A stretch of 64,000 bases of DNA from Escherichia coli. Lineage in GTDB: Bacteria > Pseudomonadota > Gammaproteobacteria > Enterobacterales > Enterobacteriaceae. A program made the position numbers and the translations under genes. The DNA lies in NCBI RefSeq assembly GCF_045037415.1, contig NZ_CP173438.1. The stretch is one strand, 5' to 3'. The notes beneath the pieces are model-generated. The model was given only the letters and a program-made list of their open reading frames with translations, had not been told where the DNA came from and did not search any database. Position 1 is the stretch's first letter. Every line of letters begins with the position of its first letter. Shown here one piece after another: positions 44,816-47,501 of this stretch.

Positions 44816-45934
44816 ATGAAATACGATCTCATCATTATTGGCAGCGGTTCCGTAGGCGCTGCCGCCGGGTATTATGCAACCCGCGCCGGTTTAAACGTGC
44901 TAATGACCGACGCCCATATGCCACCGCATCAACACGGCAGCCACCACGGCGATACGCGATTAATTCGCCATGCTTATGGTGAAGGCGAAAAGTATGTCCC
45001 GCTGGTCCTCCACGCGCAAATGCTGTGGGATGAACTTTCCCGCCACAACGAAGATGATCCCATTTTTGTACGCTCTGGTGTCATTAACCTCGGTCCGGCT
45101 GACTCCGCATTTCTCGCCAACGTCGCCCACAGCGCCGACCAGTGGCAACTCAACGTTGAAAAGCTCGACGCGCAAGGGATTATGGCCCGCTGGCCAGAAA
45201 TACGCGTCCCGGACAACTACATCGGTTTATTTGAAACTGATTCCGGTTTTTTGCGCAGCGAACTGGCGATTAAAACCTGGATCCAACTGGCGAAGGAAGC
45301 GGGCTGTGCGCAGCTGTTCAACTGCCCGGTCACCGCAATTCGTCATGACGATGATGGCGTAACTATTGAAACGGCAGACGGTGAGTATCAGGCGAAAAAA
45401 GCGATTGTCTGCGCGGGAACATGGGTAAAAGACCTACTCCCGGAGCTGCCTGTCCAGCCCGTACGCAAAGTATTTGCCTGGTATCAGGCCGATGGCCGCT
45501 ATAGCGTGAAGAATAAATTCCCGGCATTTACCGGTGAGCTGCCCAATGGCGATCAATATTATGGTTTTCCGGCAGAAAACGACGCGTTGAAGATTGGCAA
45601 ACATAACGGAGGCCAGGTTATCCATTCAGCGGATGAACGTGTTCCGTTTGCGGAAGTGGCCAGCGATGGTTCGGAAGCCTTCCCGTTCTTGCGCAATGTG
45701 TTGCCGGGTATCGGTTGCTGCCTGTACGGCGCTGCCTGCACCTATGATAATTCGCCTGACGAAGATTTTATTATCGATACCCTACCCGGCCACGATAATA
45801 CACTGCTCATTACCGGCCTGAGTGGGCACGGTTTTAAATTTGCGTCAGTTTTAGGGGAAATAGCTGCCGATTTTGCGCAAGACAAAAAAAGCGATTTTGA
45901 TTTGACGCCATTCAGGCTTTCCCGCTTCCAATAA
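44816..45934 (+). CDS. solA: N-methyl-L-tryptophan oxidase
   Basis: 372 aa [28 protein letters not shown]... with FAD-binding GxGxxG and covalent-flavin Cys region. Confidence 0.95.
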
Positions 45935-45943
45935 TCATCATTA

Positions 45944-45969
45944 CGGCCTCCAGAATGAGGCCGTTTTTA
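45944..45969 (+). terminator. rho-independent terminator of solA
   Basis: Stem cggcctc/gaggccg followed by TTTTT. Confidence 0.75.
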
Positions 45970-45981
45970 CAGGAGTATTTA

Positions 45982-46095
45982 ATGCGTCGACTGTTGCACT
46001 ATCTCATCAATAATATTCGCGAGCATCTGATGCTTTATCTTTTTCTCTGGGGATTGTTGGCAATTATGGATCTGATCTATGTGTTTTATTTTTAG
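45982..46095 (+). CDS. yceO: small hydrophobic protein (YceO-like)
   Basis: 37-codon [40 protein letters not shown] preceded by aggag; not in ORF track (too short); position matches yceO in E. coli. Confidence 0.6.
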
Positions 46096-46355
46096 TTTTC
46101 CGCACTGACATAAACTGACAAATATTTAATCTCCCTTTCATTTAGCGTGAAAAATTGAATGAGATTCTTCCTGCCTCTACAGCACTCACTAGACCTTCCA
46201 GATGCTTAACCCACTAAACTTATGAAGATTCTTTCATTATTAATTCAAAATTATTGAAATAAAAATAAATATCATTCAATTTGTTATTTTTGTGTTGCAA
46301 TTCATTCTCCGACACGCCATTTTCTTTCTCTCGCAAATTCGTTTTGGATGTACTT

Positions 46356-46922
46356 ATGTCATTCACAAATACCCCTGAACGCTATGGTGTTATATCTGCG
46401 GCCTTACATTGGCTAAGCGCAATTATTGTCTACGGCATGTTTGCTTTAGGTCTGTGGATGGTCACGCTCAGTTATTACGATGGCTGGTATCACAAAGCAC
46501 CCGAACTGCATAAAAGCATCGGTATTTTGTTAATGATGGGGCTGGTTATTCGCGTTCTGTGGCGTGTCATATCTCCACCGCCGGGTCCGCTGCCGAGTTA
46601 TTCGCCCATGACTCGTCTTGCAGCAAAAGCTGGACATCTCGCATTGTACCTATTGCTGTTCGCCATCGGCATCAGCGGCTATCTGATCTCAACTGCCGAT
46701 GGTAAACCGATCAGCGTTTTTGGCTGGTTTGACGTCCCCGCGACCCTCTCCGACGCTGGCGCACAGGCTGACTTTGCCGGTGCCCTGCATTTTTGGCTCG
46801 CGTGGAGCGTTGTAGTACTGTCCGTTATGCACGGATTTATGGCCCTGAAGCATCATTTCATCGATAAAGACGACACTCTGAAGCGCATGCTGGGAAAGTC
46901 GTCATCTGACTATGGAGTATAA
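46356..46922 (+). CDS. yceJ: cytochrome b561 family protein
   Basis: ORF with MSFTNTPERYGVISAALHWLSAIIVYGMFALG... start at ATG 46356 (188 aa); four TM helices with conserved His. Confidence 0.9.
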   Translation: MSFTNTPERYGVISAALHWLSAIIVYGMFALGLWMVTLSYYDGWYHKAPELHKSIGILLMMGLVIRVLWRVISPPPGPLPSYSPMTRLAAKAGHLALYLLLFAIGISGYLISTADGKPISVFGWFDVPATLSDAGAQADFAGALHFWLAWSVVVLSVMHGFMALKHHFIDKDDTLKRMLGKSSSDYGV

Positions 46923-46925
46923 AAA

Positions 46926-47501
46926 ATGAAAAAAAGCCTGCTTGGTTTAACCTTCGCTTCCTTGATGTTCTCTGCCGGTTCAGCGGTTGCCGCCGATTAC
47001 AAAATTGACAAAGAAGGTCAGCACGCCTTTGTTAACTTCCGAATCCAGCATCTTGGCTATAGCTGGTTATATGGCACCTTCAAAGATTTCGACGGTACTT
47101 TTACCTTTGATGAAAAAAATCCAGCTGCCGATAAAGTGAATGTGACAATTAACACCACCAGCGTCGATACTAATCACGCCGAACGCGATAAACATCTTCG
47201 CAGTGCGGATTTCCTCAATACCGCAAAATATCCACAGGCAACATTCACCTCCACCAGCGTGAAGAAAGACGGTGACGAACTGGATATTACCGGCAATCTG
47301 ACGCTGAATGGTGTAACCAAGCCCGTCACACTGGAAGCGAAATTAATTGGTCAGGGTGACGACCCGTGGGGCGGTAAACGTGCAGGCTTTGAGGCCGAAG
47401 GCAAAATTAAGCTCAAAGACTTCAATATCAAGACAGATTTAGGTCCAGCGTCTCAGGAAGTGGATCTGATTATTTCAGTGGAAGGCGTACAGCAGAAGTA
47501 A
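46926..47501 (+). CDS. yceI: periplasmic YceI-family polyisoprenoid-binding protein
   Basis: 191 aa [41 protein letters not shown]... with signal peptide. Confidence 0.93.

What the first reader, a model, noticed from the sequence alone, without database searches (positions are those of the whole stretch)
45982..46095. Short hydrophobic ORF (yceO-like) between solA and yceJ
A 37-codon [40 protein letters not shown], follows the solA terminator and is preceded by aggag. It looks like a single-pass small membrane protein and is missed by the 60-aa ORF cutoff.
Basis: partly seen in the sequence, partly recalled or inferred. Interest (0 to 1): 0.3.

Follow-up and report, generated by a model that had tools for sequence, protein, structure and literature searches.

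The report
Known small membrane protein gene yceO
The 37-codon ORF is the already annotated E. coli gene yceO, a real, conserved, very weakly expressed single-helix membrane protein of still unknown function, so the finding is correct but ordinary.

Summary
The ORF at 45982-46095 (+) exists exactly as described. It sits 47 nt after the solA stop, directly behind the solA terminator hairpin, with AGGAG 6 nt upstream of the ATG. RefSeq annotates precisely these coordinates as 'YceO family protein' (WP_001253418.1), and Pfam DUF2770 matches at 79.9 bits. It is a genuine coding gene. The region is present in 5411 of 5426 complete E. coli genomes. Thirty-eight of 40 species-level loci from about 10 genera keep a 37-codon ORF, one has 36 codons, and the one truncated copy lies in an error-ridden assembly. 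Median dN/dS is about 0.12, and only this frame is open in all sequences. Published work detects YceO-SPA from the chromosome at very low level and YceO by top-down MS. The 37-aa start is conserved in every species. The 46-aa start used by UniProt/K-12 lies inside the terminator hairpin, has no SD and occurs only in some Escherichia. The product is predicted as one helix (pLDDT 95) with a basic N-terminus, an invariant NN[IV]REH motif, a 22-residue hydrophobic segment with an invariant Asp, and a conserved helical face. yceO always follows solA but persists where yceJ-yceI are lost. It is already known and of low interest. The only modest added value is the start-codon correction and the solA linkage.

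The parts
45982..46095 (+). yceO coding sequence, 37 codons plus TAG stop (YceO/DUF2770 family small protein)
   Evidence: Searches give the sequence. RefSeq CDS WP_001253418.1 is at the same coordinates. Pfam PF10968 scores 79.9 bits against a cutoff of 25. The ORF is conserved at 37 codons in 38 of 40 species loci and at 36 in one, with dN/dS about 0.12.
45971..45975 (+). Shine-Dalgarno-like AGGAG, 6 nt upstream of the ATG at 45982
   Evidence: Read directly from the sequence. GGAG-, GAGG- or GGGG-type motifs lie 4-9 nt upstream of the ATG in many but not all related loci.
45943..45969 (+). solA intrinsic terminator: 8-bp stem ACGGCCTC/GAGGCCGT, loop CAGAAT, then a T-run; it ends 17 nt (stem) or 12 nt (T-run) before the yceO ATG
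   Evidence: RNA fold. A comparable hairpin with a T-rich tail is found in the solA-yceO spacer of at least 29 of 44 sequences.
45955..45957 (+). Upstream in-frame ATG, the start of the classical 46-aa YceO (UniProt YCEO_ECOLI); probably not the native start
   Evidence: It lies in the loop and 3' arm of the terminator hairpin and has no SD. An in-frame start at -9 codons occurs only in Escherichia, as ATG or TTG, and is absent in all other genera. The Pfam profile begins at the second Met.
46009..46026 (+). Codons 10-15, the NNIREH motif at the predicted cytoplasm/membrane boundary
   Evidence: N11, R13 and H15 are invariant, and N10 and E14 are at least 90% conserved, in 37 family sequences.
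46027..46092 (+). Codons 16-37, a hydrophobic helix predicted to be a transmembrane segment reaching the C-terminus, with invariant Asp30 (46069-46071)
   Evidence: The maximum 19-residue Kyte-Doolittle window is 2.15, starting at residue 16. AlphaFold2 gives a single helix over residues 2-36 with pLDDT 95.3. D30 is invariant. Conservation is concentrated on one helical face, permutation p about 0.01.
44816..45934 (+). solA (N-methyl-L-tryptophan oxidase), the invariant upstream neighbour and probable source of yceO transcription
   Evidence: Annotation. solA lies immediately upstream of yceO in all 40 species loci plus the Klebsiella and Salmonella-type loci. The spacer is 7-133 nt, usually 40-62.
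46356..47501 (+). yceJ-yceI (cytochrome b561-type protein and YceI family protein), downstream neighbours 260 nt away; context only, not obligate partners
   Evidence: Annotation. They are absent in E. albertii L005, Buttiauxella L033/L034, L043 and Klebsiella L045/L046, while yceO stays intact there.

Best explanation
This is the chromosomal core gene yceO of Escherichia coli. It encodes a 37-residue protein, not the 46 residues in UniProt, that forms one continuous alpha-helix. Residues 1-15 are basic and amphipathic (R2, R3, R13) and end in an invariant N-N-[I/V]-R-E-H motif. Residues 16-37 form a hydrophobic segment running to the C-terminus. By the positive-inside rule the protein should sit in the inner membrane as a tail-anchored peptide, N-terminus in the cytoplasm and C-terminus at the periplasmic face (inferred). 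One face of the helix carries H15, Y19, L22, W23, L26, the membrane-buried D30 and Y33. That face is conserved, so the most likely mode of action is helix-helix packing against a larger inner-membrane protein, or with itself, to modulate that protein's activity or stability, as other E. coli small membrane proteins do (inferred; the partner is unknown). The gene has no intergenic space for a promoter of its own. It starts 17 nt after the stem of the solA terminator hairpin (12 nt after its T-run), and in Buttiauxella only 7 nt after the solA stop. It is therefore most likely transcribed from upstream, through a leaky solA terminator or from a promoter inside solA (inferred). That would fit the very low protein level reported. 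What is shown: the ORF, its annotation, its conservation and purifying selection, the conserved start, and published detection of the protein. What is inferred: topology, partner binding and the transcription route. The confidence given applies to the core claim (known gene yceO, a real 37-aa single-helix small protein). The partner-binding and readthrough steps taken alone are about 0.5.
For: Identity: RefSeq CDS 'YceO family protein' lies at the same coordinates. Pfam DUF2770 scores 79.9 bits over profile positions 1-36. The exact peptide occurs on at least 1000 contigs and is named YceO.

Coding: the region is present in 5411 of 5426 complete E. coli genomes and a CDS is annotated in 60 of 60 sampled. 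Forty species loci in Escherichia, Enterobacter, Lelliottia, Leclercia, Atlantibacter, Buttiauxella, Huaxiibacter, Silvania, Entomohabitans and Pseudenterobacter were examined, with the same ATG in all and 37 codons in 38. Klebsiella, Citrobacter and Cedecea also carry it. Variable columns number 24/13/36 at codon positions 1/2/3, median dN/dS is 0.12, and the other five frames carry stops.

Protein detected: chromosomal YceO-SPA was seen by immunoblot at very low level, and YceO is listed as detected by top-down MS (PMC12529367).

Start codon.

Structure.

Transcription context: the spacer and hairpins are, and no sigma-70-like site lies between 45183 and the ATG.

Non-essential: the gene lies inside a viable 26.5-kb deletion (PMC8611074).
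Against: No experiment available here shows membrane insertion, topology or a binding partner. The conserved-face statistic is modest (p about 0.01 for residues 16-37, about 0.04-0.05 for longer spans). No transcription start-site or 3'-end data could be consulted, so readthrough of the solA terminator is not shown. The Storz-lab constructs and synthetic peptides use the 46-aa form, and the peptide [11 protein letters not shown] was seen when that ORF was overexpressed, so use of the upstream ATG in E. coli is not formally excluded. The SD is weak or absent in several genera. The 'acid stress / biofilm' labels come from database names and a secondary table; the primary papers could not be read.
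Confidence: 0.85

Rival explanations
1. The native product is the 46-residue protein that starts at ATG 45955, as in UniProt YCEO_ECOLI and the curated K-12 annotation. On this view the 37-codon reading is a truncation.
For: The ORF is open from 45955. The 46-aa form is widely deposited, on at least 1000 contigs, as YCEO_ECOLI. The peptide [11 protein letters not shown] was detected when the 46-aa ORF was expressed from pBAD24.
Against: The ATG at 45955 lies in the loop and 3' arm of a stable hairpin and has no SD. An in-frame start at that position exists only in Escherichia, is TTG in three of the Escherichia loci, and is absent in every other genus, while the 45982 ATG is universal. The Pfam family profile starts at the second Met, and PGAP uses the 37-aa form. 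The pBAD construct supplies its own ribosome-binding site, so it says nothing about native initiation.
Confidence: 0.1
2. The ORF is not translated into a functional protein. On this view the sequence is conserved as RNA or DNA, for example as a solA 3'UTR element, a small RNA, or a regulatory region for yceJ-yceI.
For: Protein abundance is extremely low: it was undetectable by bottom-up MS in wild type and at least 10,000-fold below pBAD levels. The ORF sits directly behind a terminator with no promoter of its own.
Against: Substitutions follow codon periodicity (13 variable second positions against 36 third positions). Synonymous sites are saturated between genera while the peptide stays 54-78% identical, and dN/dS is about 0.12. 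The length is fixed at 37 codons, and natural length variants include in-frame 6-nt and 12-nt insertions and a 6-nt deletion. No Rfam family matches. The tagged protein is detected from the chromosome.
Confidence: 0.03
3. yceO is a leader peptide or accessory subunit dedicated to the downstream yceJ-yceI operon (cytochrome b561-like protein plus a periplasmic YceI protein), by analogy with CydX for cytochrome bd.
For: yceO lies upstream of yceJ-yceI on the same strand in most genera, with no recognisable terminator in between in E. coli. Small hydrophobic subunits of cytochrome complexes are known; CydX and CydH are mentioned.
Against: A 260-nt AT-rich gap separates the yceO stop from the yceJ start. 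yceJ-yceI are absent in E. albertii, two Buttiauxella, L043 and Klebsiella, yet yceO remains intact at 37 codons there. The Klebsiella allele is listed in 68,051 blocks of the collection.
Confidence: 0.07
4. yceO is a type I toxin-like small hydrophobic peptide that damages the membrane when expressed and is kept silent by an antisense RNA.
For: It is small and hydrophobic and its native expression is very low. A sigma-70-like match on the minus strand (46279-46250) points towards the gene.
Against: It is single-copy, syntenic and vertically inherited as a core gene, unlike the patchy, often multi-copy type I toxins. No Rfam antitoxin or sRNA family matches. The promoter-like count equals the random expectation, 5 against 4.9. 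The protein was overexpressed from pBAD at up to 0.2% arabinose for MS and immunoblots with no toxicity mentioned in the passages read. There is no PADLOC match.
Confidence: 0.03

Closest known systems
E. coli K-12 yceO (b1058; UniProt YCEO_ECOLI; Pfam DUF2770 / PF10968; RefSeq WP_001253418.1 'YceO family protein')
   Same: It is the same gene. The 37 residues are identical to WP_001253418.1, which is annotated in K-12 MG1655 and in strain SK1144, whose DNA over window 45700-46400 is 100% identical. The position between solA and yceJ is the same, and the full-length Pfam match applies.
   Different: Only the start differs. UniProt/K-12 and the Storz-lab constructs use a 46-aa form that starts 27 nt upstream.
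Small single-pass inner-membrane regulators of E. coli, such as AcrZ (binds AcrB) and MgtS (stabilises MgtA), and the oxidase subunits CydX and CydH
   Same: It is under 50 aa, consists of a single hydrophobic helix and is chromosomally encoded, with a conserved helical face suited to packing against a larger membrane protein. These proteins are named as such in PMC12529367. That they act by binding larger membrane proteins is established knowledge.
   Different: There is no sequence similarity to any of them. No partner is known for YceO, and no solved structure contains a relative. Unlike cydX, yceO is not embedded in the operon of an obvious membrane partner: its constant neighbour, solA, is annotated as an N-methyl-L-tryptophan oxidase with a DAO (FAD-dependent oxidoreductase) Pfam domain.
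Type I toxins (Hok, Ldr, Ibs, TisB, ShoB families)
   Same: Both are short hydrophobic peptides with very low basal expression.
   Different: yceO is a core, single-copy, syntenic gene with no antisense RNA family, no evidence of toxicity and strong purifying selection across genera.

Membership tests
YceO / DUF2770 (Pfam PF10968) | Score above the Pfam gathering threshold over the whole profile | tested here: met
   79.9 bits against a cutoff of 25, E = 1.3e-22, with protein residues 1-36 matching profile positions 1-36 of 36.
YceO / DUF2770 (Pfam PF10968) | About 37 residues with the conserved N-N-[IV]-R-E-H motif and a buried Asp near the C-terminus | tested here: met
   N11, R13, H15 and D30 are invariant in 37 family members, and the window protein has all of them.
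YceO / DUF2770 (Pfam PF10968) | Located immediately downstream of solA in Enterobacteriaceae | tested here: met
   solA lies upstream in all 40 species loci and in the Klebsiella and Salmonella-type loci. In the window, solA ends at 45934.
YceO / DUF2770 (NCBIfam model) | Match to an NCBIfam HMM | tested here: not met
   No NCBIfam HMM matches. PGAP's name 'YceO family protein' therefore comes from some other kind of evidence than these HMMs. This does not affect Pfam membership.
Bacterial small membrane proteins (50 aa or fewer, single transmembrane helix) | Length of at most 50 aa and one hydrophobic helix long enough to span the membrane | tested here: met
   The protein is 37 aa. Residues 16-37 have GRAVY 2.05, and the best 19-residue window scores 2.15. 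AlphaFold2 gives a single helix over 2-36 with pLDDT 95.3.
Bacterial small membrane proteins (50 aa or fewer, single transmembrane helix) | The protein is actually synthesised in the cell | not testable with these tools
   Literature only: chromosomal YceO-SPA was detected by immunoblot, and YceO is listed as detected by top-down MS (PMC12529367).
Bacterial small membrane proteins (50 aa or fewer, single transmembrane helix) | Fractionates with the inner membrane and has a defined topology | not testable with these tools
   No data were accessible. The N-in/C-out orientation is inferred from R2, R3 and R13 preceding the hydrophobic segment.
Type I toxin-antitoxin toxins | Associated antisense or overlapping regulatory RNA | tested here: not met
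   There is no Rfam hit above noise in 45600-46500 on either strand. Promoter-like sites are at the chance level. An undescribed RNA cannot be excluded.
Type I toxin-antitoxin toxins | Patchy, often multi-copy or mobile distribution | tested here: not met
   The median is one copy per genome, the region is present in 5411 of 5426 E. coli genomes, and synteny is conserved across genera.
Leader peptide or dedicated subunit of the yceJ-yceI operon | Co-occurrence with, and close coupling to, the regulated or partner genes | tested here: not met
   The gap to yceJ is 260 nt. yceJ-yceI are absent from five lineages that keep an intact yceO.

The most novel reading that the evidence does not exclude
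yceO forms a conserved two-gene unit with solA. On this reading it is transcribed only through the leaky solA terminator (directly, 7 nt after solA, in Buttiauxella), and its product is the membrane partner of the SolA pathway, for example tethering or modulating the soluble N-methyltryptophan oxidase or a transporter for its substrate. That would give both orphan genes a physiological context. The evidence does not exclude this. solA-yceO adjacency is the only invariant linkage across all genera examined, including those that lost yceJ-yceI.
Probability: 0.15. Interest if true: 0.4.

Novelty: already known. Interest (0 to 1): 0.1.

Why it matters
It matters little for discovery, because yceO has been annotated for decades and its protein has been detected experimentally. 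There are two small practical points. First, the comparative data argue that the reference UniProt/K-12 model, and reagents built on it (46 aa), start 9 codons too early. The conserved protein is 37 aa, which matters for tagging, synthetic peptide standards and mass-spectrometric searches. Second, the gene is linked to solA and not to yceJ-yceI, and it has an invariant NN[IV]REH...D motif on one helical face. These give concrete handles for finding the function of a still uncharacterised core small protein.

Tried and rejected
I re-ran it with the 46-aa form, which returned almost only Escherichia/Shigella hits. The wider range came from the HMMER representative search and the genome scan.
- the NCBIfam scan found no model.
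- the Rfam, PDB sequence and PADLOC searches found nothing.
- I looked for initiation-profiling evidence. yceO is not mentioned in the main text of the stalled-initiation-complex preprint or of the Mg-starvation small-protein paper, nor in the held supplement of the 2021 smORF preprint. The supplements of the stalled-initiation-complex preprint are not held. The acid-stress Ribo-seq paper mentions neither yceO, solA nor yceJ.
- the primary papers (Hemm 2008, Hemm 2010, Hemm 2020 and Hobbs 2010) and an Annual Review of Biochemistry 2014 review cited in PMC12529367 are not held. The biofilm and acid-stress phenotypes could not be verified.
- the search for 'b1058' returned only unrelated reference anchors.
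- 'DUF2770' occurs in no held paper.
- the terminator scanner did not flag the solA hairpin, because its tail rule misses it once the stem absorbs one T. Folding and my own scan do flag it.
- A SolA-linker-YceO co-fold was considered and dropped, because the structure tool returns no contacts or PAE, so an interface could not be judged.
- I tried to map nine frameshift alleles to single-base indels. Only four could be matched on the window's allele background. Two of them are indels in the T4 run at 46084-46087. The rest are on other backgrounds.

Full report
**Observation.** The window holds an ATG at 45982 and a TAG at 46093-46095. Together they enclose 37 codons that translate to [37 protein letters not shown]. 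AGGAG lies at 45971-45975, 6 nt before the ATG. Immediately after the solA stop (45932-45934) comes an 8-bp GC-rich hairpin (ACGGCCTC / loop CAGAAT / GAGGCCGT, 45943-45964) followed by a T-run. The 66-nt stretch containing it folds to -16.3 kcal/mol, z = -2.5 against shuffles. The description is therefore accurate. The purely mechanical ORF is longer, 46 aa from an ATG at 45955. An ORF of this size is not remarkable in itself: 67 ORFs of at least 20 aa overlap the surrounding 4 kb. Its reality has to be judged from other evidence.

**Identity.** The 701-nt region is 100% identical to E. coli SK1144 and 98.6% identical to K-12 MG1655, and it is found in 5424 of 5426 complete E. coli genomes. 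Some strains carry the label 'DUF2770 family protein' instead. Pfam DUF2770 (PF10968) matches at 79.9 bits against a cutoff of 25, with profile positions 1-36 aligned to residues 1-36 of the 37-aa form. The exact peptide is on at least 1000 contigs in the protein collection. So is the 46-aa version, which is the UniProt entry YCEO_ECOLI. The finding is therefore the known gene yceO.

- A scan of one genome per species returned 40 loci from Escherichia, Huaxiibacter, Lelliottia, Atlantibacter, Enterobacter, Leclercia, Entomohabitans, Silvania, Buttiauxella and Pseudenterobacter.
- All 40 have an ATG at the position homologous to 45982. Thirty-eight have exactly 37 codons and one has 36.
- The single truncated copy (L042) lies in an assembly in which dinI, solA, yceI and trhO are all fragmented, so it reflects poor sequence and not a pseudogene.
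- Klebsiella, Citrobacter, Cedecea and a Salmonella-labelled genome also carry the family.
- Across 39 distinct 111-nt sequences, variable columns number 24, 13 and 36 at codon positions 1, 2 and 3.
- Mean pN is 0.17 and mean pS is 0.69. Synonymous sites are saturated between genera, and the median dN/dS over unsaturated pairs is 0.12.
- None of the other five frames is open in all sequences.
- Within E. coli, 60 of 60 evenly sampled complete genomes annotate the CDS, and 5411 of 5426 hold the region.
- Frame-disrupting alleles do exist, but on only 1-5 contigs each.
- Two of them are +1 or -1 T in the T4 run at 46084-46087 and change only the last two or three residues.
- Other natural length variants are in-frame: LY and LYLY insertions, a 2-residue (6-nt) deletion, and stop-loss forms with 6 extra residues.
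- No Rfam family accounts for the conservation.

Experimentally, the Storz laboratory detects chromosomally SPA-tagged YceO by immunoblot, at a level at least 10,000-fold below pBAD induction. The same paper lists YceO among proteins seen by top-down MS (PMC12529367). The gene is real, translated and under purifying selection.

**Start codon.** The 46-aa start (45955) has its A and T in the hairpin loop and its G as the first base of the 3' arm, and no SD precedes it. An in-frame start 9 codons upstream exists only in Escherichia, as ATG in some species and TTG in others, and is absent elsewhere, whereas the 45982 ATG is universal. The Pfam profile starts at the second Met. The peptide [11 protein letters not shown] was observed only when the 46-aa ORF was expressed from pBAD24, which says nothing about native initiation. 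The two proteoforms differ by 1178 Da, so a native intact mass would settle the matter.

**Anatomy of the product.**

- Residues 1-15 are polar and basic (GRAVY -0.63, high hydrophobic moment). Residues 16-37 are strongly hydrophobic (GRAVY 2.05; best 19-residue window 2.15).
- AlphaFold2 on a 37-sequence alignment gives one continuous helix over residues 2-36 with mean pLDDT 95.3.
- N11, R13, H15 and D30 are invariant. M1, N10, E14, Y19, L22 and L26 are at least 90% conserved.
- Within residues 16-37, conservation is concentrated on one helical face (Y19, L22, W23, L26, D30, Y33, in register with H15), with permutation p about 0.01.
- No relative is found in the PDB or in defence-system models.

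From the positive-inside rule I infer an N-in, C-out tail-anchored inner-membrane peptide. From the conserved polar-studded face I infer packing against another transmembrane helix. This is how AcrZ, MgtS and CydX are known to work, but no partner is known here.

**Genomic context and expression.** The order dinI-bssS-solA-yceO-yceJ-yceI-trhO is conserved in most genera. However, yceJ-yceI are missing in E. albertii (L005), two Buttiauxella (L033, L034), L043 and Klebsiella (L045, L046), and all of these keep an intact 37-codon yceO. That argues against a leader-peptide or dedicated-subunit role for yceJ-yceI. solA, by contrast, is always immediately upstream. The solA-stop to yceO-ATG spacer is 7-133 nt, usually 40-62. 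At least 29 of 44 sequences have a terminator-like hairpin inside it. In Buttiauxella the spacer is only 7 nt with no hairpin. No sigma-70-like site lies between 45183 and the ATG on the plus strand. I therefore infer that yceO is transcribed from upstream, by readthrough of the solA terminator or from a promoter inside solA. That would also explain its very low abundance. This step is not shown.

[quoted passage not shown] It appears in a Tn-seq list for gallium (PMC12548402). It was down-regulated in UPEC intracellular communities (PMC4959519) and mutated in a motility evolution experiment (PMC5289928). It also lies within a viable 26.5-kb deletion (PMC8611074). None of this defines a mechanism, and the primary phenotype papers could not be read.

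**Verdict.** The feature is the known gene yceO, so novelty is nil and interest is low. The small additions are evidence that the conserved protein is 37 aa and not 46 aa, the invariant NN[IV]REH...D30 face, and the constant linkage to solA. The most novel reading not excluded is a functional solA-yceO unit (probability about 0.15).

Noticed in passing
window 46281-46922: The mechanical ORF for yceJ starts at TTG 46281 (213 aa), but RefSeq starts it at ATG 46356 (188 aa). The 260-nt yceO-yceJ spacer (46096-46355) is very AT-rich, with no recognisable terminator after yceO.
   Followed up: no
E. coli genomes collection, hits to window 45700-46400 and 45935-46110: Five of about 5420 matches to this chromosomal region lie on records classed as plasmids, and a few genomes have two places. 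These could be misassigned replicons, F-prime-like elements or duplications.
   Followed up: no
window 46030-46095 (yceO 3' half); proteins P0036, P0052, P0010, P0130, P0131, P0135, P0136: Natural E. coli alleles vary in length: in-frame LY and LYLY insertions and a 2-residue deletion in the hydrophobic segment, stop-loss forms with 6 extra residues (on 49 and 25 contigs), and +1 or -1 T in the T4 run at 46084-46087 that rewrites only the C-terminal tail. The C-terminal end seems tolerant to extension.
   Followed up: partly
L044 3001-3147 (Salmonella-labelled genome GCA_002156235.1); proteins P0099, P0104, P0167: A 48-aa subfamily has a similar 11-residue C-terminal extension (...SDCFSLTLTDTS / ...SDLSLLTIIDSN) in the same solA-yceJ position. 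This may be a lineage-specific periplasmic tail.
   Followed up: partly
L005, L033, L034, L043, L045, L046: yceJ-yceI have been lost in several lineages (E. albertii, Buttiauxella, an unnamed Enterobacteriaceae genome, Klebsiella). In Klebsiella the convergent trhO gene overlaps the last 15 nt of yceO.
   Followed up: partly
L033 and L034, 2491-2503: In Buttiauxella the solA stop is only 7 nt from the yceO ATG and there is no intervening hairpin, so the two genes are plainly co-transcribed there and possibly translationally coupled.
   Followed up: partly
L042 (Enterobacter sp. EA-1, CP025776.1): Every gene in this locus (dinI, solA, yceI, trhO) is split into several tblastn pieces, and yceO stops at codon 14. 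This looks like an indel-rich, uncorrected long-read assembly and not biology.
   Followed up: no
proteins P0115, P0120: Some predicted proteins fuse the C-terminus of SolA to YceO in one reading frame (87 and 145 aa). These are probably frameshifted or mis-called models, but they show how close the two ORFs are.
   Followed up: no
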